From positions 76,385 to 130,942 of the forward strand of contig CAYUZE010000003.1 of assembly GCA_964449585.1 (NCBI GenBank): a stretch of 54,558 nucleotides of DNA, written 5' to 3'. The position numbers were made by a program, and so were the translations under genes. This stretch comes from an uncultured Gammaproteobacteria bacterium (GTDB lineage Bacteria > Patescibacteriota > Microgenomatia > UBA10105 > UBA927). The notes beneath the pieces are model-generated. The model was not told the origin of the DNA. It ran no database searches and saw only the letters and a program-made list of their open reading frames with translations. This document shows positions 8 through 28,111 of the stretch, piece after piece (within the stretch, counting starts at the first letter, position 1; every line of letters begins with the position of its first letter).

Positions 8-1990
8 ATGCCAATGCGAAGAGAATATTATTCAGATTCGATAGCAAATTTTCTTAATACATCACCTTTGGAGATTTTGGGCGTACTCGTGAAAAGTAAC
101 GACTTTGCGTTGGAACAATCGCAAAGAGATGCGTGGATAGAAGAAGTAGAGATACTTCAAAAAGTATTATCTTCGTATAAAGGATCAATATATTTTGAGT
201 ATTCAATTCCGCGCATGGGCAAGCGAATTGATGTTGTTGTTATTACTGGTTCAACCATTTTTATCCTTGAATTTAAAGTTGGCGAAACTGAATTTTCATC
301 ATATGCAACAGATCAAGTTTGGGATTATGCGCTTGATTTAAAAAATTTCCATGAACCAAGTCATGAACTTTTTATAGCTCCCATTTTAATTGCTACAAAG
401 GCAAAAAATATATTAACAACAATCTCAATATCACCGCATAACGATAAAGTACTCTTTCCTATATGGTGTAATGCAGACCTGTTAAATCAGGTAATTGCAG
501 AAGTACTCATATTTACAGAAGGTAACGTTATCGATCCCATTCGGTGGGAGTCTGGAAGGTATCATCCAACTCCTACTATTATTGAAGCGGCAATGGCCTT
601 GTATAACGGACATTCAGTGAGTGAAATATCTCGAAGCGATGCAAGCGCTATCAATCTGAGTAATACAACTAAAGCTGTCTCAGATATAATTCGATTATCA
701 AGACAAAATTCATATAAATCTATATGCTTTGTAACAGGCGTGCCTGGTGCTGGAAAAACTTTAGTTGGCCTTAATATCGCAACCAAGCATATTGATAAGA
801 GCAGTGATCTTTATAGTGTCTTTCTTTCTGGCAACGGTCCACTTGTTGCCGTTCTTCGTGAAGCACTAGCTCGAGATAAAGTACGACATGAAAAAGATCG
901 CGGAAATAGAATCAAGAAAAGTGAGGCAATGAGCGATGTTAAAATGTTTATTCAAAATGTTCATAATTTTCGCGATGAATGTCTTATTGATTTGGTAAAG
1001 CCCCCTATTGAACATGTGGCTATATTCGACGAAGCACAGCGAGCATGGGATTTGCACCAAACAGCAAATTTTATGCGGCGGAAAAAAAATACTCCAAATT
1101 TTAATAAGTCTGAACCCGAATTCTTGATTTCTTGTCTTGATCGTCATCCAGATTGGGCAGTTGTTGTTTGTCTCGTTGGTGGAGGGCAAGAAATAAATAC
1201 CGGTGAAGCAGGAATTAGTGAATGGATTGAGGCATTAAATCGATCATATCCTAATTGGCATATTTACATATCATCTCGCCTTACTGATAGTGAATATGGA
1301 GCAGAAAGGGTTTTAGAAAGTATCAAAGATCATTCAAATCTTGTAAATAATAATGATCTACATCTTTCAGTCTCAATGCGTTCATTTCGCGCCGAACATA
1401 TTTCACTATTAGTTAAACAATTGCTTGATCTAAAGCTACATGAAGCACAAAAAACATTGAAAAATGTGAATAACAAATACCCAATTGTGATAACTCGTGA
1501 TTATAACAAAGCAAAACAATGGCTAAAAAATCACGCACGAGGTTCAGAAAGATATGGTGTTATAGTTTCTTCTCAAGCCCAACGACTCAAGCCTCACGCA
1601 ATAGATATAAAATCACCAGTTGATCCAATACATTGGTTTCTTGACGGAAAAGAAGATGTGCGTTCTTCATATTACCTCGAAGATGTTGTTACAGAATTTC
1701 AAATACAAGGTTTAGAACTTGATTGGGCTTGTGTTACTTGGGATGCCGATTTTCGTTATTCCAAAAATGGTTGGGAACATTTTTCCTTTGTAGGAAGTCA
1801 TTGGAATCACATAAAGAAATTGGAACGACAATTATATCTAAAGAATGCTTATCGTGTTCTTCTTACTCGTGCACGACAAGGTATGATTATAGTAATTCCA
1901 AAAGGTGATGAAATTGATCCTACGCGAAAGAAGGAATATTATGATTCAACATTTGAGTATCTACGAGAGATAGGTTTTTCTATTATTTAG
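8..1990 (+). CDS. DUF2075 / Schlafen-group-3-like helicase with an N-terminal PD-(D/E)XK-like nuclease domain
   Basis: Walker A GVPGAGKT, Walker B IFDEAQR, C-terminal [13 protein letters not shown]; N-terminal IDVVV...ILEFK; visibly AT-richer than the rest of the window. Confidence 0.8.
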
Positions 1991-20099: not shown

Positions 20100-20537
20100 A
20101 TGCCAACAGTCAATCAATTAGTTCGCCAGGGGCGACATCATAAATCAAAAAAGGTGAAAGCCACCGCGCTTCGCAAGTTCTTTAACGCGAAGGACGGGGT
20201 GACGAAATCACTGCCGGCTCCGTTTAAACGGGGAGTGGTAACACTCGTTAAAACCATGACGCCGAAAAAGCCGAATTCGGCACTTCGGAAAGTGGCTCGC
20301 GTGCGGCTTTCAAACAAGCAGGAAGTGACGGCATATATTCCCGGTATCGGTCATGAGTTGACGGAACACGCCATCGTACTTGTCCGCGGCGGTCGTGTCC
20401 CCGACTTACCAGGAGTCAAATACCATATTGTCCGCGGTAAGTTTGATACCACCGGAGTCGTGACCCGACGCCAGGGACGCAGCCGATATGGAACTAAGAA
20501 AACACAAAGCGGACCGACACCCGCATCAGCAAACTAA
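20100..20537 (+). CDS. rpsL: 30S protein S12
   Basis: [23 protein letters not shown]. Confidence 0.99.
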
Positions 20538-20546
20538 TCGTAACCT

Positions 20547-21023
20547 ATGAGAACAAGCAAAACATATCATAAACTTCTTCCCGCCGATCCTATGTACGGC
20601 AATCGCCTGGTGACGCGATTTGTGAATCGCGTGATGGTTGACGGGAAAAAGACGGTTGCCGAAGGTCAGGTGTATAAAGCACTCGAACTTATTAAGGCAA
20701 AAACCAACGATGATCCCATCAAGGTATTTGAAAACGCCATCAACAATGTCGGTCCCAAGACGGAAGTAAAAGCACGCCGGGTCGGGGGAGCAAGTTACCA
20801 GGTGCCTATGGAAGTCCGCGGTGACCGCCGGGTATCACTTGCCATCCGCTGGATCGTCGAATTTGCCAAGAAACGAAGTAACCGTGAGTTCCATACGTTT
20901 GCCGAAAAGCTCGCGGCGGAAATATTGGATGCGGCAGGCAATGTCGGAGAAGCAATCAAAAAGCGAGACACCGTACACCGCATGGCGGATGCGAACAAAG
21001 CGTTTGCCCACTTCCGATGGTAA
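20547..21023 (+). CDS. rpsG: 30S protein S7
   Basis: RRVGGASYQVP, HRMADANKAFAH. Confidence 0.99.
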   Translation: MRTSKTYHKLLPADPMYGNRLVTRFVNRVMVDGKKTVAEGQVYKALELIKAKTNDDPIKVFENAINNVGPKTEVKARRVGGASYQVPMEVRGDRRVSLAIRWIVEFAKKRSNREFHTFAEKLAAEILDAAGNVGEAIKKRDTVHRMADANKAFAHFRW

Positions 21024-21622
21024 AAGGATCTTCGATTCACGCGCATTTTCAAAAAGCTGATCCCGTTCTTTTCTCCCTTTTGCCGTCACGTATCGTTCCC
21101 CTTCGTCCGAGTAGCTCCGGCACCTACTTTGCCAGCATGTGCCGCACCATTATCGGACAACAACTGTCCACGACGGCAGCAGACACCATCTATGCCAGAT
21201 TCCGCAAACTTTTCGGATCTACGCGCATCACTCCGACTACCGTGCTTGCGATTCCCGATGAGACGCTTCGAAGCGTCGGCATGTCCTATGCCAAAATTCG
21301 CTTTGTGAAAGACTGGGCAAGAAGAGTCAACGCCAAAGAAGTACCGCTTGCGGGACTCTCCGCGATGGATAACGAAGCGGTGATTGATATTCTTACGCAA
21401 ACAAAGGGGATAGGGAAGTGGACGGCAGAGATGTTTCTTATGTTCACCTTAGGGAGAGAAGACGTATTTTCCTTCGGCGATCTCGGACTCAAACGGGCTA
21501 TACAGACGGCCTATAAGTTAAAACGCGAGCCGTCAATGCAGTATATGGAACGACTGAGCAAACGGTGGGTGCCCTTCCGGACCTATGCCGCTCTTGCGCT
21601 ATGGGCATATAAGGATCAATAA
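21017..21622 (+). CDS. alkA: DNA-3-methyladenine glycosylase II (AlkA/HhH-GPD family)
   Basis: IIGQQLS, KGIGKWTAEMFLMF.LGREDV...D; start overlaps the rpsG stop. Confidence 0.9.
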   Translation: MVKGSSIHAHFQKADPVLFSLLPSRIVPLRPSSSGTYFASMCRTIIGQQLSTTAADTIYARFRKLFGSTRITPTTVLAIPDETLRSVGMSYAKIRFVKDWARRVNAKEVPLAGLSAMDNEAVIDILTQTKGIGKWTAEMFLMFTLGREDVFSFGDLGLKRAIQTAYKLKREPSMQYMERLSKRWVPFRTYAALALWAYKDQ

Positions 21623-21633
21623 TAGAAGGAGCT

Positions 21634-22020
21634 TTGAAAGTACTCATTACCCTCGTTATCCTCGGTATTCTGGGAATAGGTATCCGATACGGATTTTTGT
21701 TGCGACAAACAGCTCGCGCCTGTAACGCCGTATATCAGGAATCACTCGATACCATAGCCGCACAATCGCAAACCGTGCTCGCCGACAACAAAACCTCGTG
21801 TATTAACTCGTACTCACTCCTCACTGAATGGGATGCCTGTCTTACGAAGGGAAAAGACGCTGTTCCCGATACGCTTCTTCCGGTCGTCAGCCCCGTCGTT
21901 TCGAATGTCATGCTGTTTTTCCGCGAAAAACGTAAGGATATGTCGGTACTCAAAAAAGAACACGACGTCCGGTGCAAAGGATACACCGAGCTCATATTTT
22001 TCCCTCCCGATGCGGAGTGA
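21634..22020 (+). CDS. Hypothetical membrane-anchored protein with four Cys
   Basis: N-terminal hydrophobic helix; TTG start, uncertain. Confidence 0.55.
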   Translation: MKVLITLVILGILGIGIRYGFLLRQTARACNAVYQESLDTIAAQSQTVLADNKTSCINSYSLLTEWDACLTKGKDAVPDTLLPVVSPVVSNVMLFFREKRKDMSVLKKEHDVRCKGYTELIFFPPDAE

Positions 22021-22029
22021 AACGAGTCT

Positions 22030-22674
22030 ATGCAAGGCGGCTTACACAAAATAACCGTCCAAAAGCCGAATAGATCACGCCTCTTTCTCGCCATCCCCAT
22101 CGAACATACCTGGCAGTATGCGCTTGCTGCCTGGCAATTGAACGTGGGAAAAAAACTTGCCTGCGGCACCGTACCGACCAGGTGGACGTCGCCGGCGCAG
22201 TATCATATAACCGTTCGTTTTATCGGGACTATCGAACAACGTCTCGTACCGGGGATTGTGGCGCAGCTTCGTGGACTCATCAGCCGACACCGTGCGTTTT
22301 CATTACCCTTTCACGGTATTGAGTACGCAACACCGAACGAACCGAAAATGATTTGGGCACGATTTTCCAAAACCGCCCGGTTTAACCGGTTAGTTCAGGA
22401 TATGACGCGTCAGATTCCCCGTTTTCTCTCTATGCATGGGGAAAAAACGCCGCAACTTTCGGGACATGGGATCATTCCCCATATTACGCTTGCCCGAGCC
22501 AAAGGGAATTTTCATGCCGGATCGATGCTTTCCGGCGATACAATAACGCCAGACGCACCGCTTCCCGTGCGCTCACTTATCCTGTATGAGTCGGTACATA
22601 TCCCGGATCAAACCGTCTATAAAACAATTGCAACGTTCCCTTTGCCACCTCAAGACGGTACCATAGAAGCATGA
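22030..22674 (+). CDS. thpR: RNA 2',3'-cyclic phosphodiesterase (2H family)
   Basis: RLFLAIP, two HxT motifs (YHITVRF, PHITLAR). Confidence 0.9.
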   Translation: MQGGLHKITVQKPNRSRLFLAIPIEHTWQYALAAWQLNVGKKLACGTVPTRWTSPAQYHITVRFIGTIEQRLVPGIVAQLRGLISRHRAFSLPFHGIEYATPNEPKMIWARFSKTARFNRLVQDMTRQIPRFLSMHGEKTPQLSGHGIIPHITLARAKGNFHAGSMLSGDTITPDAPLPVRSLILYESVHIPDQTVYKTIATFPLPPQDGTIEA

Positions 22675-23885
22675 AGATCAAATACGCTTTGCTGGGTATA
22701 CTGTTTGCCGTCATTGCGTACGGGGCGTGGTTTGTCTATACGAATCTTCGAGGAAGCGGAGCCGCCTTCGGTCCGATCCCGCGTATATCTGAAGAAGCGG
22801 TAAACACGGCTCCGTTATCGACGGCATCGATAAACCGTACCGGTCTGCCGCTGACGGTTGCAGACGGAGTGTCGCTTTCGATTTTTGCAAAAGACCTGGG
22901 GGCTCCGCGGGTACTAACTGAGGATGCAACCGGGACAATCCTTACAAGTATTCCCGCACAAAGCAAAGTGGTGGCATTACCCGATGCGAATGCCGACGGT
23001 GTCGCGGACACGGTGATGACGGTTGCGGAAGGACTTTCCCTGCCGCACGGGATCGCGTTTCATGGCGGGCGACTCTTTATCGCCGAAACAAATATGGTAG
23101 CGTCGTACGCCTACGATCCGACGACAAAAAAAGCGACGGATAAAAAAAAGCTTTTTGACCTTCCCGTCGGCGGCAATCATTTCTCGCGTTCGATAGGATT
23201 TGGTCCGGACGGAAAACTCTATGTTTCCATAGGATCCAGTTGCAATGTTTGTGTGGAGAAGGATCCGCGACGGGCGGCGATATTTGTCGCCAATGCGGAC
23301 GGCTCCGGTTTTCGCAGTTTTGCCACCGGCTTAAGAAATACGGTGTTCTTTACCTGGCACCCGGAAACACGCGAGATGTGGGGAACGGATATGGGGAGGG
23401 ATCTTTTGGGAGACAACACGCCGTTTGAGGAAGTGAATATCATCAAAGACGGCGCTTACTACGGATGGCCGTATTGTTACAACAATAAAACGCATGACGG
23501 ATCCTTTGATCCGAGTGCTCAGGCAAAAGAAAAATGCGAGGCGAGTGTCTCACCGCATATCACCTTTCAGGCACATGCTGCACCGCTGGGATTGGCGTTT
23601 GTTCCGGAAAGTTGGCCACCGCAGTATCGGGGAGATCTCCTCGTTGCGTATCACGGTTCATGGAATAGAAGCGCTCCCACGGGATATAAAATCGCGCGGT
23701 TTGACCTCAACGAGCAACATGCAGCCAATGAGGAATCTGATTTCATTGCCGGTTGGCTGGTCGGAAACGGTGCTTTAGGCAGACCGGTCGGATTGTTGTT
23801 TAGCCACGACGACACACTCTATATAAGCGATGACAAATCAGGGACAATTTACCGCGCGGTACCGGTTGCGCCGTCAGGAAAGTAA
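22671..23885 (+). CDS. Glucose/sorbosone dehydrogenase (GSDH, PQQ-type beta-propeller), membrane-anchored
   Basis: GLRN..., GPDGKLYVSIGSSCN, YGWPYC, HAAPLGL, GRPVG. Confidence 0.85.
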   Translation: MKIKYALLGILFAVIAYGAWFVYTNLRGSGAAFGPIPRISEEAVNTAPLSTASINRTGLPLTVADGVSLSIFAKDLGAPRVLTEDATGTILTSIPAQSKVVALPDANADGVADTVMTVAEGLSLPHGIAFHGGRLFIAETNMVASYAYDPTTKKATDKKKLFDLPVGGNHFSRSIGFGPDGKLYVSIGSSCNVCVEKDPRRAAIFVANADGSGFRSFATGLRNTVFFTWHPETREMWGTDMGRDLLGDNTPFEEVNIIKDGAYYGWPYCYNNKTHDGSFDPSAQAKEKCEASVSPHITFQAHAAPLGLAFVPESWPPQYRGDLLVAYHGSWNRSAPTGYKIARFDLNEQHAANEESDFIAGWLVGNGALGRPVGLLFSHDDTLYISDDKSGTIYRAVPVAPSGK

Positions 23886-25592
23886 TCAACCGAACGTAAA
23901 TGCGTAAAGCTCAATATCCCCGTCCAGCACTTCCAGTTTGAGGATATGTTTGCCTGCGCTTGGGAGTTTAATAAGTTTGTATAACCGGTCGGCGGTTACT
24001 TTTACCTTCCCGTCCTCAACGTCGTCTCCTTTGAGTTCATCGGTAACGGGAACCCCATCCAGGAAGACGCGAATGCCCCCTTTGGCATCTGCCTTGGGTC
24101 GCATGACAAGGAAGACCTCTTTTGCCTCAAAGTGATAGGTGAGAGTGGCTCCCGTGTGCGGCATTGCCCGTTCTCCGCCGATCGTCCATTTCCCCGACAA
24201 TGCAAAGGTGTTCTTGGGAAGGGTTGCGGGTGCGGAAAATTCCGTGAGCATATCCGGCCGTACCGGTTCGGGAGAAACAATTCCCGCCATTCGTTCATAG
24301 CCAAGGTAGGTTTCCGGGGTTCTCGCTTCGACGCGATAGGCTGGATTTTCAATGGCATCCTCGACGGTTGTTCCCGTTTCTTTGAGAAGCGCTTGGATCA
24401 TCGCTTCCGTTTCATCATAGTCGCCCTCGCCGAAATGTGTGTAGCGGATTTTTCCGTTTTTATCGACCATATATTTTGCCGGCCAATAACGGTTGGCATA
24501 CGCCCGCCAGGTTTTATAGTCGTTATCCTGCATGATGGGGTAGGTAAGTCCGAAATCAGCGGCCGCTTTCTTCACGTTAGCAAGGTCTTTTTCGAACTCG
24601 AATTCAGGCGTATGGACGCCGACGATAACCAGTCCCTTGTCTTTATACTTTTCATGCCATGACCGGATGTAGGGGAGCGTACGAATGCAGTTTATGCAGG
24701 TGTACGTCCAGAAATCGACCAACACTACCTTTCCGCGCAACTCTTGCATGGTGAGGGGAGCGGAGTTTATCCACTCACCGCCGGCAATAAATTCGGGTGC
24801 GTTGCCGTAATTATTCTCCAAGAGATCGGTCAGCATAGATCCTCCTTTTTGTAAATCGGTTAACCGGTTTCGTACCAGTGCATTGTCTTCAAGTTTTGTA
24901 AGACCCGTGCCGTATGCGGGAAATTTATCCAATATAAACGTCTGAAACGCTCGATCCCAGGAATGATAAATGGCGAGTGCGGTAAGGAGCATAAGGATAC
25001 CGAATGCTTTCTGAATTTTCGCGGTATTTGCCAGTAACCAAGGGTGGTTGGTGAGCAGGGATCTGCCACCCATGGTGATGGCAAGGAGGGGAATCGCCGT
25101 CCCTAAGGCATATGCGAGGGTAAGGATGACTGCATTGAACCCTACGGTGCTGGTGGCGGCAAGCGTAATGATAGAGGCAAGGATCGGGCCCACGCAGGGT
25201 GTCCATAGCAAGCCTAAACTTACGCCAACCAAGACTCCGGAAAGATACCCGTCGTTTTGCGATTGCCGAGGGACAAACGCCGTCATTTTCGAAAAGAATT
25301 TCTCTACCATAATTTGAAATGCGGGGATAAGCAGACTGACGCCGAAGAACGCAATGACAAAAACGGCAACGAGCCGCAACACATCTGCTGAAAGTCCCGT
25401 AGATCGGACAATTGCCGAAAGAAACAGCGTGAAGAAGGTAAAGCTCGCGATAAATCCGGTAACCACCCCCAACGGACGACGCTTGCCGCCGGTTATACTC
25501 CCGGATAGCACCACCGGCAAAATAGGGAGAATACACGGAGAAAGAATGGTGATAAGTCCGCCTAAGAATGCAAAAAGGATAAGAATAATCAT
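23886..25592 (-). CDS. dipZ: DipZ-like protein (CcdA membrane domain + TlpA thioredoxin + C-terminal domain)
   Basis: ILSPCILP and WTPCVGP (CcdA Cys pair), FWTYTCINC, C-terminal YAFTFG. Confidence 0.92.
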   Translation of the reverse strand: MIILILFAFLGGLITILSPCILPILPVVLSGSITGGKRRPLGVVTGFIASFTFFTLFLSAIVRSTGLSADVLRLVAVFVIAFFGVSLLIPAFQIMVEKFFSKMTAFVPRQSQNDGYLSGVLVGVSLGLLWTPCVGPILASIITLAATSTVGFNAVILTLAYALGTAIPLLAITMGGRSLLTNHPWLLANTAKIQKAFGILMLLTALAIYHSWDRAFQTFILDKFPAYGTGLTKLEDNALVRNRLTDLQKGGSMLTDLLENNYGNAPEFIAGGEWINSAPLTMQELRGKVVLVDFWTYTCINCIRTLPYIRSWHEKYKDKGLVIVGVHTPEFEFEKDLANVKKAAADFGLTYPIMQDNDYKTWRAYANRYWPAKYMVDKNGKIRYTHFGEGDYDETEAMIQALLKETGTTVEDAIENPAYRVEARTPETYLGYERMAGIVSPEPVRPDMLTEFSAPATLPKNTFALSGKWTIGGERAMPHTGATLTYHFEAKEVFLVMRPKADAKGGIRVFLDGVPVTDELKGDDVEDGKVKVTADRLYKLIKLPSAGKHILKLEVLDGDIELYAFTFG

Positions 25593-25596
25593 TTCG

Positions 25597-26106
25597 TTAT
25601 TTAATGTTTGCGATGAGATCGCGAATATCGCCCCCATTCCACTTGGTTACTTCGCGGCCGTCTTCGTCCACCTGCACGAACGTGTGTTGATAGGTTATCC
25701 CATACTTTCTCTTGAGAGCGGTTGCACTGTCATAATCGGTTTTAAACAAAACCACATCTTCAGGAATATTCGCCGAATTGTTCTGGAATGCCGCATCCGC
25801 AGGTCTGCAGGTGGGGCACCACGGCGCGTGGAAAAACAGCACCCGTTTTTTGTCAGCAGAGGCTTCAAATGCCGTTTCGGAATACGCAAGATAGCGGGTT
25901 TCATTTTTCATCATTGTCCCGTCTTCCTTTTTCATGGCATCATCGTTGCTTTCCGCATTTTCCATCATCGTATCGGTTTCTTCCATTGCGGATGTCGGGG
26001 ACCGCATGCGAGCGTTATCGACGGACGACTGATTATTTTTAAACGCTACGACTCCTCCGACAAGGGTAAGAACTATGACGACGCCGATGATGAGTTTGTT
26101 TTTCAT
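25597..26106 (-). CDS. Exported thioredoxin-family protein
   Basis: N-terminal signal/anchor, FFHAPWCPTC, YGITYQHTFV; SD ggagg. Confidence 0.9.
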   Translation of the reverse strand: MKNKLIIGVVIVLTLVGGVVAFKNNQSSVDNARMRSPTSAMEETDTMMENAESNDDAMKKEDGTMMKNETRYLAYSETAFEASADKKRVLFFHAPWCPTCRPADAAFQNNSANIPEDVVLFKTDYDSATALKRKYGITYQHTFVQVDEDGREVTKWNGGDIRDLIANIK

Positions 26107-26143
26107 AAAACCTCCAGAAAAAGCAAACGTTGTTACTTATCTC

Positions 26144-26172
26144 ACAATATAACCGTTTTCCGGGAATGTCAA
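26144..26172 (-). promoter_or_regulatory. sigma70 promoter for the thioredoxin-dipZ operon
   Basis: Minus strand: TTGACA, 17-nt spacer, TATTGT. Confidence 0.6.
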
Positions 26173-26196
26173 GCGGACTTAACATCGAAGTTGATG

Positions 26197-26571
26197 TTAC
26201 TGGGTGATTTGTGTATAGAGTCGGACAAGAATTTTCGTGAGTAACATGCCGCCGAGGGCGCCTAGTAGCCAGGGGTCGATGTTGTGATTGAGTGCCTGGG
26301 TAATAATGCCAATGGTGAGTATCGATGATCCGACAAAAAAGGATATTCTTCCTGCGGTTAGCTGATGCGCATGTTCGCGTTCATCCGCCGCCCGTTCTTT
26401 CCAGATAAATCCCAGGTAGGCAAAAAAAGCGAGCGCAAATAATACCAGTAAAAACATCTCGGTGGATTTGGGCATAAGGAGTCCCGGAGGGGTTATAAAC
26501 GCTGCCAGAAGAACGATGAGCATGAGCGCCGTGGCAACCTCTCCGAGTTGATAACGTGTTATTTTTTGCAT
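26197..26571 (-). CDS. Membrane protein, DUF2178-like
   Basis: Four hydrophobic helices with a DERE...AGRISF motif; downstream of and overlapping an XRE gene, the usual context for this pair. Confidence 0.6.
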   Translation of the reverse strand: MQKITRYQLGEVATALMLIVLLAAFITPPGLLMPKSTEMFLLVLFALAFFAYLGFIWKERAADEREHAHQLTAGRISFFVGSSILTIGIITQALNHNIDPWLLGALGGMLLTKILVRLYTQITQ

Positions 26572-26765
26572 AGTTCAAATATTGATTCTACTGGTTTATG
26601 AAAGTACTGTGCAATCTTGAGTGCCAAAAGTAATGACGGGGTGTAGGAGCCTTTCTCTATGGAGATAATTGTTTGACGGGTAACACCGATAGCCGTGGCC
26701 AGCTGTTCCTGGGTGATTTTTGCTTTCGCACGTAGTTCATTGACGGAATTTTCTATCGTTTCCAT
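26559..26765 (-). CDS. XRE-family helix-turn-helix regulator
   Basis: TQEQLA..IGVTRQTIISIEKG.Y.PSL.LALKIA..F. Confidence 0.93.
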   Translation of the reverse strand: METIENSVNELRAKAKITQEQLATAIGVTRQTIISIEKGSYTPSLLLALKIAQYFHKPVESIFELCKK

Positions 26766-26812
26766 GCAGCAGCGATTATACCCTAGTATTTTTAAAACCG
26801 AAAACGAGGGGG

Positions 26813-26843
26813 TTGACTATAACGTTACGTTATTGTTTAGTAT
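26813..26843 (+). promoter_or_regulatory. MerR-type promoter with dyad operator
   Basis: TTGACT (26813-26818), 19-nt spacer, TAGTAT (26838-26843); perfect dyad ATAACGT-T-ACGTTAT at 26819-26833. Confidence 0.85.
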
Positions 26844-26849
26844 CACGAT

Positions 26850-27593
26850 ATGGTCTATACGGTAAGACAATTAGCACAGCTTGCGGGGGTAAGCGTCCGC
26901 ACACTTCATTATTACGACAACATCGGTTTGCTCAAGCCGTCCTTCGTGCGGCAAAACGGGTATCGTATCTATGAGGAAAAAGAAGTGCGCAAGCTCCAAC
27001 AGATATTGCTGTTTCGTGAGTTAGCGTTTCCGTTAGACCAGATTCAGCGCATGATGACTGCAAAGAATTTTGACGTTAAGCAGGCGCTTCACGATCAATA
27101 TCGGTTGCTTACGCTTAAAAAAGCAAAAATACAACGGCTTATGCATGTGGTGGAAGGCCGATTGAAAGGAGGTGATACCATGACGAACCAAAATCAATTC
27201 GGTGTATTTACCGACAAACAATTGGAAAACTTTAAAGAGGAAGCGCGCAAGCGATGGGGTGAAACGGATGCCTACAAGCAATCCGTAGAACGCACAAAAC
27301 ACTGGACAAAAGCAGACTATGACAGGATTGCGGAAGAGGGCACGAAATTCACCGAAGCACTGGCAAAGCTTATGGATAGAGGAATAGCAGATGAAAAAGT
27401 ACAGCAGATGATCGAAAAACACTATCAGGGCATCAAGGTGTTTTATGATTGTCCGATTGAGATGTACAGAAGTTTAGGAGCAATGTATGTCGAAGATCCG
27501 CGCTTTCGCGCGTATTACGAAAAGTTCCGCAAAGGCATGGCGGCGTTTATGAACAATGCTATCGCCTATTACTGCGATAGCCACACGACCTAA
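26850..27593 (+). CDS. MerR-family regulator of TipA/Mta type (MerR HTH + TipAS-like domain)
   Basis: GVSVRTLHYYDNIGLLKP, NGYRIY; EARKRWG.TDAY, LGAMYVEDPRF. Confidence 0.93.
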   Translation: MVYTVRQLAQLAGVSVRTLHYYDNIGLLKPSFVRQNGYRIYEEKEVRKLQQILLFRELAFPLDQIQRMMTAKNFDVKQALHDQYRLLTLKKAKIQRLMHVVEGRLKGGDTMTNQNQFGVFTDKQLENFKEEARKRWGETDAYKQSVERTKHWTKADYDRIAEEGTKFTEALAKLMDRGIADEKVQQMIEKHYQGIKVFYDCPIEMYRSLGAMYVEDPRFRAYYEKFRKGMAAFMNNAIAYYCDSHTT

Positions 27594-27601
27594 TCGATAT
27601 T

Positions 27602-27628
27602 CTCCGGGATGATACGTACATCCCGGAG
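27602..27628. repeat. Perfect 10-bp inverted repeat downstream of the MerR gene (possible terminator/processing stem)
   Basis: ctccgggatg-N7-catcccggag. Confidence 0.6.
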
Positions 27629-27770
27629 GTGTCGGGGTGATATCAGCGTGTGCTGACGGTATGGAACATCTTCCCCCGGCTTTTTTCTGTGTACGCAAAA
27701 AATATTGCGTAGCATTCAAACAAGGGAAAAAATTGCAAAATATGCAAAGAAAGCGTATAGTTAGCGCGCT

Positions 27771-28025
27771 ATGGCAGTACAAAAAGAGGGTACGACAAGA
27801 ATAAATGCAGGGTGTGAATTTCTTCATGACCGGCAGATAGCTGATGTGCAGGTGGAAGTAGTTGAGCCGGTTAATGTGGGAAGTACGGGAAGGTGTTTGG
27901 GGACATGCCCCGATTGTCCAGCACTCCCGGGTAGGTCAGTGACGTTTATTTCCGTAAGCAGGTTTCCCGCGTTAGGCATAGGAAACACGATTGTCAAACC
28001 AGTGACCGGTACGGAGACGGCATAG
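27771..28025 (+). CDS. Small hypothetical protein with CxxxCxxC
   Basis: 84-aa ORF preceded by TTGCAA-17-TATAGT (27733-27761), 9 nt before the ATG. Confidence 0.45.
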   Translation: MAVQKEGTTRINAGCEFLHDRQIADVQVEVVEPVNVGSTGRCLGTCPDCPALPGRSVTFISVSRFPALGIGNTIVKPVTGTETA

Positions 28026-28051
28026 ACAACCGGTATATTTTTTAGTACAAT
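28023..28051 (+). promoter_or_regulatory. sigma70 promoter for fusA-tuf
   Basis: TAGACA (28023-28028), 17-nt spacer, TACAAT (28046-28051). Confidence 0.65.
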
Positions 28052-28084
28052 CATCTCTATAGAAGTGTTGAAGGAAATATTTGT

Positions 28085-28105
28085 CCCGCTTCGGCGGGTT
28101 TTTTT
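28085..28105 (+). terminator. Terminator-like hairpin + U7 ending 6 nt before the fusA start
   Basis: cccgc-ttcg-gcggg followed by ttttttt. Confidence 0.65.
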
Positions 28106-28111
28106 ATTACT

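What the first reader, a model, noticed from the sequence alone, without database searches (positions are those of the whole stretch)
26813..27593. Complete TipA-like circuit: operator, leaderless long form and SD-driven internal short form
Seen: a 19-bp-spacer promoter with a perfect 7-1-7 dyad, and an ATG 6 nt after the -10 box. Inside the gene is AAAGGAGGTGAT (27165-27176), the longest SD match I noticed in the window, before in-frame ATG 27180 (Met111), predicting a 137-aa ligand-binding product. Established: Streptomyces tipA yields TipAL plus in-frame TipAS, a thiopeptide-binding protein. From memory the thiostrepton-reactive Cys aligns with Ser here (YDCPIEMYRSLG), which needs checking. 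Inference: an autoregulated antibiotic sponge with a possibly different ligand, located just upstream of fusA-tuf, whose function thiopeptides block.
Basis: partly seen in the sequence, partly recalled or inferred. Interest (0 to 1): 0.66.

Follow-up and report, generated by a model that had tools for sequence, protein, structure and literature searches.

The report
TipA-class regulator with two starts
This is an ordinary member of the known TipA class of self-activating antibiotic-sensing regulators; comparison with relatives indicates it also makes a second, shorter ligand-binding protein from a strong ribosome-binding site inside the gene, as the Streptomyces prototype does.

Summary

- **Promoter:** TTGACT, a 19-nt spacer holding a perfect 7-1-7 dyad, then TAGTAT. 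The ATG lies 6 nt after the -10 box.
- **Gene:** a 247-aa MerR + TipAS protein.
- **Internal start:** AAAGGAGGTGAT lies 3 nt before in-frame Met111.

Comparison with relatives shows these features are under selection.

- The promoter/operator pattern is conserved across phyla.
- The near-zero leader is conserved in the close relatives.
- The internal AAA-GGA-GGT is invariant at synonymous sites in 14 of 15 distinct relatives (50-93% identity). All other conserved Gly codons vary freely.
- It is the strongest anti-SD match on either strand of the 54.5-kb window.
- The residues it encodes lie in a predicted disordered linker.
- Across 31 family clusters, 30 keep a linker ATG and 19 keep a top-5% SD.

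The two-product reading is therefore well supported by comparison, but no protein data exist. The thiostrepton-reactive Cys of TipAS aligns with Ser208, so covalent thiopeptide capture is not expected and the ligand is unknown. The proposed link to fusA-tuf is not supported: intervening genes vary among relatives, and terminator-like hairpins separate the genes.

Verdict: a new member of a known kind. The modest added value is evidence that the dual-start design is widespread in the family.

The parts
26813..26818 (+). -35 hexamer TTGACT of the MerR-type promoter
   Evidence: Read. TTGAC(T/C) is conserved in 15 close relatives and across phyla.
26819..26833 (+). Operator dyad ATAACGT-T-ACGTTAT inside the 19-nt spacer (26819-26837). 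Its core ACG-N3-CGT is the TipA-class operator core.
   Evidence: Two-sided changes keep the symmetry in L081 and L001 (ATGACG-caa-CGTCAT). Streptomyces loci carry the same core (CTCACGTCACGTGAG). The full promoter pattern is unique in the window.
26838..26843 (+). -10 hexamer TAGTAT. Its TAG is an in-frame stop that closes the ORF upstream.
   Evidence: TA(N)TAT/TATACT is conserved 19 nt after the -35 in all 15 relatives.
26850..27593 (+). Long form (TipAL-like), 247 aa. The ATG begins 7 nt after the last base of the -10 and has no SD, which is a leaderless-type start.
   Evidence: no SD, +0.6 kcal/mol. The gap from -10 to ATG is 6-9 nt in the 15 close relatives.
26856..27062 (+). MerR winged helix-turn-helix DNA-binding domain (residues 3-71)
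   Evidence: Pfam MerR_1 1.7e-16. The fold matches MtaN, TipAN and Lmo0526.
27075..27164 (+). Long dimerisation helix / coiled coil (residues 76-105)
   Evidence: AlphaFold2 model gives a helix at 76-105 with pLDDT 84-89.
27165..27176 (+). Internal Shine-Dalgarno AAAGGAGGTGAT, coding K106-G107-G108-D109. GGAGG ends 7 nt before the ATG.
   Evidence: Unique in the window. Strongest anti-SD duplex of both strands. AAA/GGA/GGT are codon-invariant in 14/14, 14/14 and 14/15 relatives, while other Gly codons vary. The local RNA has no significant structure.
27180..27593 (+). Predicted short form (TipAS-like), 137 aa, starting at Met111 in the disordered linker
   Evidence: In frame. It aligns to TipAS residues 3-143. 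Residues 109-113 have pLDDT below 50. A linker ATG is present in 30 of 31 family clusters.
27231..27572 (+). TipAS antibiotic-recognition domain (residues 128-241)
   Evidence: Pfam PF07739 5.5e-35, full profile 1-117. PDB 2mbz/1ny9 3e-27. Fold match.
27471..27473 (+). Ser208 codon (AGT), at the position of the thiostrepton-reactive Cys214 of TipAL (Cys105 of TipAS)
   Evidence: Alignment. Cys identity from PMC11098121. In 121 homologs this position is G 50, N 43, S 9, A 6 and C 1.
27588..27638 (+). Strong hairpin right after the stop codon (core CUCCGGGAUG / CAUCCCGGAG). It is the likely 3' end or stabiliser of the transcript.
   Evidence: Fold: the 116-nt stretch gives -41.3 kcal/mol, z = -2.3. 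No T-run follows directly, so a terminator function is inferred only.

Best explanation
The gene is a TipA-class MerR regulator in an uncultivated sludge or bioreactor bacterium.

**Taxon.** The closest genome-resolved relatives are Candidatus Woesebacteria and Roizmanbacteria. The taxon itself is inferred, not shown.

**Transcription.** A dimer of the long form binds the ACG-N3-CGT dyad inside the over-long 19-bp spacer of its own promoter. Like other MerR activators, it realigns the -35 and -10 boxes when its C-terminal TipAS domain binds a ligand, so the gene activates itself. The mRNA starts at or within a base or two of the ATG, so it is leaderless.

**Translation.** The long form is therefore made by SD-independent initiation. 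A second initiation occurs on the same mRNA at Met111. It is driven by the strongest SD in the region. It yields a 137-aa ligand-binding domain with no DNA-binding part. This short form would buffer or sequester the ligand and damp the positive feedback, as TipAS does in Streptomyces lividans and AlbAS in Klebsiella.

**Ligand.** The ligand is unknown. The reactive Cys is a Ser, so any binding would be non-covalent.

**Basis of each step.**
- Shown by sequence and comparison: family membership, the promoter/operator, the absence of a leader and of an upstream SD, and purifying selection on the internal SD + ATG at the nucleotide level.
- Inferred: that two proteins accumulate, their ratio, autoactivation, and the sponge function.
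For: - **Domains and relatives.** MerR_1 plus TipAS at 5.5e-35. PDB sequence matches: Lmo0526 1.7e-38, SkgA 6.3e-34, TipAS 3e-27, MtaN 2.3e-26. Fold matches agree.
- **Promoter.** The TipA-class promoter pattern is unique in the window against 0.03 expected. It is conserved from Streptomyces to Firmicutes, Chloroflexi and CPR.
- **Dyad.** Two-sided changes keep its symmetry.
- **Leaderless start.** The -10 to ATG gap is 6-9 nt in all 15 close relatives. Leaderless-type starts are common in this genome: 14 of 41 genes against 11% of random positions.
- **Strength of the internal SD.** It is unique and the strongest on both strands at -16.2 kcal/mol, against -11.6 for the best real gene start. 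The local RNA is unstructured. No sigma-70-like promoter lies inside the gene on the + strand.
- **Synonymous constraint.** Of 149 conserved degenerate codon columns, only F74, K106 and G107 are codon-invariant, and G108 is 14/15. The other Gly columns use 3-4 codons each.
- **Structural context.** The encoded K-G-G-D-T-M lies in a low-confidence, non-helical linker. A protein-structural reason for this conservation is therefore weak.
- **Position of Met111.** It lies within 4 residues of the known TipAS start.
- **Family-wide pattern.** 30 of 31 clusters keep a linker ATG. 19 of 31 have an SD in the top 5% of their own gene. Mean duplex energy is -8.3 kcal/mol against -3.0 for other internal ATGs.
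- **Joint loss.** GG and Met are lost together: odds ratio 31, p = 6e-5, uncorrected for phylogeny.
- **Precedent.** Two products from one gene are established for TipA (PMC7762955, PMC11098121) and described for AlbA (PMC6078987; bioRxiv 10.64898/2026.09.21.753095).
Against: - There is no direct evidence of two proteins, of the transcription start, or of DNA or ligand binding for this gene. The RNA-labelled runs held only low-depth fragments of related sequences.
- The organism's own 16S 3' end is not in the window, so the anti-SD sequence is assumed to be canonical.
- The sequences used in the comparison are related to each other. The counts are therefore not independent events.
- An internal SD-like motif could in principle act on elongation rather than initiation.
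- The reactive Cys is absent. Two of the five thiopeptide-contact residues named in PMC7762955 differ (F126 to K123, V135 to A132), as mapped by hand from the alignment.
- No efflux or other resistance gene carrying the operator lies in the window.
Confidence: 0.7

Rival explanations
1. Only one product is made. The AAAGGAGGTG motif is kept for another nucleic-acid-level reason, such as an anti-SD-mediated elongation pause that lets the N-terminal DNA-binding and coiled-coil part fold or dimerise before the effector domain emerges. Met111 would then be just a linker residue.
For: - Synonymous constraint shows selection on the RNA sequence but does not by itself say what the selection is for.
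- The motif sits exactly at the domain boundary.
Against: - The motif is always followed by an in-frame ATG 7-10 nt after GGAGG, even where the Met moves by one codon (L132, L001, L129, L130).
- Met and GG are lost together.
- The homologous position is a proven start in TipA (PMC7762955).
- From general knowledge, SD-induced pausing is disputed.
Confidence: 0.12
2. The K-G-G-[D/E]-x-M motif is conserved purely as protein, as a flexible hinge. The SD resemblance would then be an accident of Lys/Gly codons.
For: - Gly-Gly is a plausible hinge.
- The motif is widespread at the amino-acid level.
Against: - Codon choice is invariant: AAA 14/14, GGA 14/14, GGT 14/15. The other Gly columns use 3-4 codons each.
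- Streptomyces encodes the SD with different residues (M-E-A, atGGAGGc) at the same distance from its Met.
- The linker is predicted to be disordered.
Confidence: 0.04
3. The dual-start architecture is real, but the system is not an antibiotic sponge. It would be a stress or redox regulator acting on the neighbouring thioredoxin / DsbD-redoxin genes, comparable to SkgA of Caulobacter, which from general knowledge is tied to stationary-phase oxidative-stress genes. It would respond to an endogenous or environmental small molecule.
For: - In relatives L116, L119, L124 and L125 the thioredoxin gene is the divergent neighbour, only about 86 nt away. The DsbD_TM-Redoxin-Thioredoxin_10 gene follows it.
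- The same block is present in the window.
- The reactive Cys is absent.
- No transporter with an operator lies nearby.
Against: - In the window, L120, L122 and L129 other genes (XRE + membrane protein, CYTH, Colicin_V/CAP) lie between the two, so the adjacency is not kept.
- More distant relatives have unrelated neighbours.
- Only one operator copy is present.
Confidence: 0.2

Closest known systems
TipA (TipAL/TipAS) of Streptomyces lividans
   Same: - Same architecture: MerR HTH, coiled coil and TipAS domain.
- Own promoter with a 19-bp spacer and an ACG-N3-CGT dyad. Streptomyces loci show TTGCAC-CTCACGTCACGTGAGG....
- In-frame internal start in the linker, preceded by an SD. In Streptomyces this reads atGGAGGcacgcaagATG. 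Two products are established (PMC7762955, PMC11098121).
   Different: - The long form here has no leader (6 nt after the -10). Streptomyces has 26-38 nt.
- The internal SD is a 12-nt perfect match coded by K-G-G-D, not GGAGG coded by M-E-A.
- Met111 lies 4 residues downstream of the TipAS Met position.
- The reactive Cys214 is Ser208.
- Two of the five named thiopeptide contacts differ.
- Identity to TipAS is about 40%.
Lmo0526 of Listeria monocytogenes (PDB 3qao) and Mta of Bacillus subtilis (MtaN, PDB 1jbg/1r8d)
   Same: - Best solved sequence relative: 3qao at 1.7e-38, including the linker ...KGEITMTNKEKF, against KGGDTMTNQNQF here.
- Same class (PMC7762955).
- Firmicute loci also carry gaaGGAGa-N-ATG in the linker.
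   Different: - No short form was found reported for them in the papers searched.
- Firmicute loci have 18-36 nt leaders.
- From general knowledge, Mta controls efflux pump genes. None is evident here.
SkgA of Caulobacter crescentus (PDB 7cla)
   Same: Full-length TipA-class protein at 6.3e-34, with a linker Met at the same place (LEGDETMDDKHLF). The autoinhibition model in PMC7762955 probably applies.
   Different: It has a different physiological role (stationary-phase gene control, from general knowledge). Its DNA was not examined here.
AlbA (AlbAL/AlbAS) of Klebsiella oxytoca
   Same: A self-upregulating MerR regulator plus a short in-frame ligand-binding product that sequesters an antibiotic (PMC6078987; bioRxiv 10.64898/2026.09.21.753095).
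   Different: AlbAS is a tandem of two TipAS-like domains (221 aa) with only about 13% identity to TipAS, and it binds albicidin. The gene here has a single TipAS domain.

Membership tests
TipA class of MerR-family regulators | N-terminal MerR winged-HTH followed by a long dimerisation helix | tested here: met
   MerR_1 1.7e-16 and MerR 1.3e-13. Modelled helix at residues 76-105. Fold matches to MtaN, TipAN and Lmo0526.
TipA class of MerR-family regulators | [quoted passage not shown] | tested here: met
   PF07739 at 5.5e-35 over the full profile. TipAS structures 2mbz/1ny9 at 3e-27.
TipA class of MerR-family regulators | Own promoter with an over-long (19-bp) spacer carrying an inverted repeat (autoregulation) | tested here: met
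   The sequence features are present and conserved. Actual binding and autoactivation were not tested.
TipA class of MerR-family regulators | Two in-frame translation products (long regulator, short ligand-binding domain) | tested here: inconclusive
   Comparative support is strong: synonymous invariance, the strongest SD in the window, and a conserved ATG. No protein, ribosome-profiling or usable RNA data exist.
TipA class of MerR-family regulators | Covalent capture of thiopeptides through the reactive Cys (Cys214 of TipAL, Cys105 of TipAS). This feature belongs to TipA itself rather than to the whole class. | tested here: not met
   The Cys aligns with Ser208. Only 1 of 121 homologs has Cys there. 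The other Cys (TipA YDC, here Cys201) is kept in 90 of 121.
TipA class of MerR-family regulators | Binding of an antibiotic or other ligand that triggers activation | not testable with these tools
   Only residue mapping was possible. F120, F128 and W136 match TipA F123, Y131 and W139. K123 and A132 replace F126 and V135 (with PMC7762955).

The most novel reading that the evidence does not exclude
The long/short dual-start design is ancestral to the whole TipA class, including Mta-type and Lmo0526-type proteins for which the papers searched report no short form. In this lineage it is hard-wired as a leaderless long form plus a maximal-strength SD for the short form. The regulator-to-sponge ratio would then depend on how ribosomes initiate: SD-independent initiation on the leaderless start against SD-led initiation at the internal site. 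The circuit would itself read out translation stress as well as ligand.
Probability: 0.15. Interest if true: 0.6.

Novelty: new member of a known kind. Interest (0 to 1): 0.38.

Why it matters
- **A clean example.** This is a case where a conserved protein motif (K-G-G-[D/E]-x-M in a disordered linker) is best explained by selection on the mRNA, as an internal ribosome-binding site plus start codon.
- **Wider reach for the family.** The regulator-plus-sponge isoform pair known from Streptomyces TipA and Klebsiella AlbA appears to be common across the TipA class, in many phyla. This includes small-genome uncultivated bacteria from sludge.
- **A testable prediction.** The same should hold for well-studied homologs in Bacillus, Listeria and Caulobacter.
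- **Annotation.** Single-product annotation of these genes misses a probable second protein.
- **Limit.** It does not reveal a new kind of system.

Tried and rejected
- **Metagenome scan with the single protein.** It returned only three useful relatives (L081-L083). The rest were N-terminal MerR matches. Close relatives were instead fetched one at a time.
- **Exact look-up of the window protein.** Not on record.
- **Cluster membership.** It gave no organism names, so the taxon stays inferred from the best genome hits (Woesebacteria and Roizmanbacteria, 55% identity).
- **RNA evidence.** It yielded only low-depth contig fragments of related, non-identical genes in runs of uncertain RNA status. 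It gives no information on the transcript start or on the isoforms.
- **Founding TipA papers.** PMC413584 and PMC154473 are not held. Claims about TipA rest on later papers that cite them.
- **First GG/Met table.** It was flawed because it counted Met residues upstream of the motif. It was redone.
- **Other operator copies.** The only near match (517-531, 2 mismatches) lies inside a coding region with no promoter context. It was rejected as chance.
- **Internal promoter for a separate short transcript.** None was found on the + strand inside the gene.
- **Functional coupling to fusA-tuf.** Rejected on variable synteny and intervening terminator-like hairpins.

Full report
**Observation**

Reading 26500-27900 confirms every feature at the stated coordinates.

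- TTGACT lies at 26813-26818.
- The 19-nt spacer (26819-26837) contains the perfect dyad ATAACGT-T-ACGTTAT (26819-26833). The repeat finder extends it to 10-nt arms at 90% complementarity.
- TAGTAT lies at 26838-26843, followed by six bases and ATG 26850.
- The TAG within the -10 box is in frame with the ORF, so the ORF cannot start further upstream.
- No SD precedes this ATG (+0.6 kcal/mol).
- The ORF 26850-27593 encodes 247 aa.
- AAAGGAGGTGAT lies at 27165-27176, and ATG 27180 is codon 111 in frame, giving 137 aa.

**Is it more than chance?**

- AAGGAGGTGA occurs once in the 54.5-kb window, against 0.06 expected.
- I scored every position on both strands for pairing with a canonical 16S 3' tail. 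This site gives the minimum, -16.2 kcal/mol. The strongest SD at any plausible gene start is -11.6, at tuf.
- A 7-1-7 dyad alone is not rare. By my own arithmetic about three are expected per 54 kb.
- The promoter pattern abstracted from the family (TTGAC-N4-ACG-N3-CGT-N7-TANNNT) occurs only here, even with one mismatch allowed, against 0.03 expected.

**What the protein is**

- Pfam finds MerR_1 (residues 3-71) and the TipAS antibiotic-recognition domain (residues 128-241) at 5.5e-35 over the whole profile.
- The best solved relatives by sequence are Lmo0526 of Listeria (3qao, 1.7e-38), SkgA of Caulobacter (7cla, 6.3e-34), TipAS (2mbz/1ny9, about 3e-27), MtaN (2.3e-26) and TipAN.
- An AlphaFold2 model has mean pLDDT 84.7. 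It shows the HTH, a long helix at 76-105, a low-confidence non-helical linker (pLDDT below 50 at residues 109-113), and then a helical bundle.
- Foldseek returns the same structures.
- The short ORF from Met111 aligns to TipAS residues 3-143. Met111 lies four residues downstream of the position of the TipAS start Met.

**Comparative test of the promoter and the leaderless start**

I collected 15 distinct relatives with DNA, at 50-93% protein identity.

- All keep TTGAC(T/C), 19 nt, and a TAnnnT box.
- All keep the ACG-N3-CGT core.
- All have only 6-9 nt between the -10 box and the ATG.
- In L081 and L001 the half-sites changed on both sides (ATGACG-caa-CGTCAT), which keeps the symmetry. This is what a dimer-bound operator predicts.

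Across 79 genome loci from many phyla the same promoter is found. Streptomyces shows TTGCAC-CTCACGTCACGTGAGG....

- The leader is 26-38 nt in Streptomyces and 18-36 nt in most Firmicutes.
- It is near zero in the Microgenomates-type relatives and a few others: Ktedonobacteraceae, Calditrichia and Geodermatophilaceae.

In this window, leaderless-type starts are common. 14 of 41 genes have a -10-like hexamer 4-10 nt before the start, against 11% of random positions. The leaderless long form therefore fits the organism's habits and is not special to this gene.

**Comparative test of the internal SD and ATG**

I built a codon alignment of the 15 relatives. It has 149 columns where a degenerate amino acid is conserved in at least 10 sequences.

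- Only three columns are codon-invariant: F74, K106 (AAA, 14/14) and G107 (GGA, 14/14).
- G108 is GGT in 14/15. The exception, L082, still reads AAAGGAG.
- The other conserved Gly columns each use 3-4 codons, with pairwise codon identity of 0.23-0.38.
- Flanking codons vary freely.
- Where the Met moves by a codon or an extra residue is inserted (L001, L003, L129, L130, L132), the ATG stays 7-10 nt after GGAGG.

The encoded residues lie in a predicted disordered linker, so a protein-level reason for such codon invariance is weak. The RNA around the site has no significant structure (z = -0.8), and the centroid fold leaves the SD and AUG unpaired. No sigma-70-like promoter lies inside the gene on the + strand, so the short form would come from the same mRNA.

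The pattern holds family-wide.

- I grouped the 79 genome loci into 31 clusters at 60% identity. Thirty have an in-frame ATG in the linker window.
- Nineteen have an SD in the top 5% of their own gene's positions.
- Mean duplex energy is -8.3 kcal/mol, against -3.0 for other internal ATGs.
- Streptomyces builds its SD from different residues (M-E-A, atGGAGGc...ATG).
- Loci from lineages such as Saprospiraceae, Saccharibacteria, Parcubacteria and Falkowbacteria lack the SD.
- Among 121 protein homologs, GG and Met co-occur in 89. GG occurs without Met once. Both are absent in 8 (odds ratio 31, p = 6e-5).
- These counts are not corrected for shared ancestry.

**Literature**

- tipA of S. lividans gives TipAL and TipAS from two start codons, and TipAS is the predominant form (PMC7762955; PMC11098121).
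- TipAS binds thiostrepton covalently through its Cys105, which is Cys214 of TipAL (PMC11098121).
- The position is G, N or S in nearly all 121 homologs and Cys in only one.
- Five thiopeptide-contact residues are named in PMC7762955. F123, Y131 and W139 correspond to F120, F128 and W136. F126 and V135 correspond to K123 and A132. I mapped these by hand.
- AlbA of Klebsiella is a second case of a long regulator plus a short sequestering product (PMC6078987; bioRxiv 10.64898/2026.09.21.753095).
- Full-text searches found no paper describing family-wide conservation of the internal ribosome-binding site. The founding papers are not held, so this absence is weak evidence.

**Context**

- The window reads rpoB, rpoC, rpsL, rpsG, then a block of nine genes, then fusA, tuf, S10 and L3.
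- The nine-gene block is: an HhH-GPD glycosylase, an unknown gene, a LigT-like gene, a GSDH-like gene, a DsbD_TM-Redoxin-Thioredoxin_10 fusion and a thioredoxin on the minus strand, a 124-aa membrane protein and a 68-aa XRE regulator on the minus strand, and the TipA-like gene.
- Relatives L119 and L120 have the same block, but what lies between the TipA-like gene and fusA varies. The window has nothing annotated there. L120 has Cdd1 plus a deaminase. L130 has seven called genes. L127/L128 have other neighbours altogether.
- A strong hairpin follows the stop codon.
- A terminator-like hairpin with a T7 run sits directly before the fusA ATG.

I therefore see no support for a functional tie to fusA-tuf. 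In several relatives the divergent neighbour is the thioredoxin gene, about 86 nt away. That keeps a redox-related regulon as a rival for the physiological role.

**Expression data**

DNA runs holding the sequence are from sludge, bioreactor and wastewater metagenomes. RNA-labelled runs gave only low-depth fragments of related genes. They say nothing on 5' ends or isoforms.

**Verdict**

- The circuit reading is well supported by comparison but untested biochemically.
- The ligand and sponge role are inferred.
- The fusA-tuf link is not supported.
- This is a new member of the known TipA class. Its lineage-specific traits are a leaderless long form, a maximal internal SD, and no reactive Cys.
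- The comparison also shows that the dual-start design is widespread in the family.

Noticed in passing
window 20100-28111: The str operon is split. rpsL (20100-20537) and rpsG (ending at 21023) are separated from fusA (28112) by a block of about 7 kb holding nine unrelated genes on both strands. The TipA-like gene is the last of them. The same block is seen in relatives L119 and L120.
   Followed up: partly
window 28023-28111; L120 7592-7675; L130 8195-8252: fusA has no SD. Its ATG is preceded by a promoter-like TACAAT or TATAAT box, then a G+C-rich hairpin followed by T7, then 6-19 nt. The stem sequences are entirely different in the three relatives (CCCGC/GCGGG, GCTTCCC/GGGGAGC, CTGTTCC/GGAACAG), but the layout is kept. 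It may be a conserved leader attenuator or a U-rich translation element for the fusA-tuf-S10 operon.
   Followed up: partly
window, whole (for example 7360, 9162, 11095, 26765, 39910): Leaderless-type starts are frequent. 14 of 41 genes have a -10-like hexamer 4-10 nt before the start codon, against 11% of random positions. About 16 of 41 have an SD core, so the genome mixes both initiation modes.
   Followed up: partly
window 26197-26765 (- strand): A 68-aa XRE/HTH_3 regulator and a 124-aa membrane protein overlap by 13 nt. The pair is divergent from the TipA-like gene, and the XRE ATG lies 9 nt after a perfect TATAAT. The pair is present next to the gene in L120, L122 and L129 but absent in L116, L119 and L124, so it looks like a small mobile or facultative module.
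   Followed up: no
window 23886-26106 (- strand): A thioredoxin (169 aa) lies next to a 583-aa fusion of DsbD-type transmembrane, Redoxin/AhpC-TSA and Thioredoxin_10 domains. The pair is syntenic with the TipA-like gene in most close relatives and is its immediate divergent neighbour in some.
   Followed up: partly
L010-L079 (Streptomyces loci), linker region: In Streptomyces the TipAS SD (GGAGG) is spelled by the codons for Met-Glu-Ala (atg gag gcN), 8-9 nt before the TipAS ATG. It is near-invariant across dozens of species. Other phyla spell the SD with Lys/Glu-Gly-Gly/Glu.
   Followed up: partly
window 517-531: A near-copy of the operator (ATAACGTTACCTTCT, 2 mismatches) lies inside a coding region, with no -35/-10 context. 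It is probably chance.
   Followed up: yes
window 26922-27358 in runs X25, X26, X28: Metagenomic runs labelled RNA-Seq (mud, wetland) hold short low-depth contigs 90-97% identical to the gene. None of their differences falls in 27159-27226, the stretch that holds the SD and ATG.
   Followed up: no
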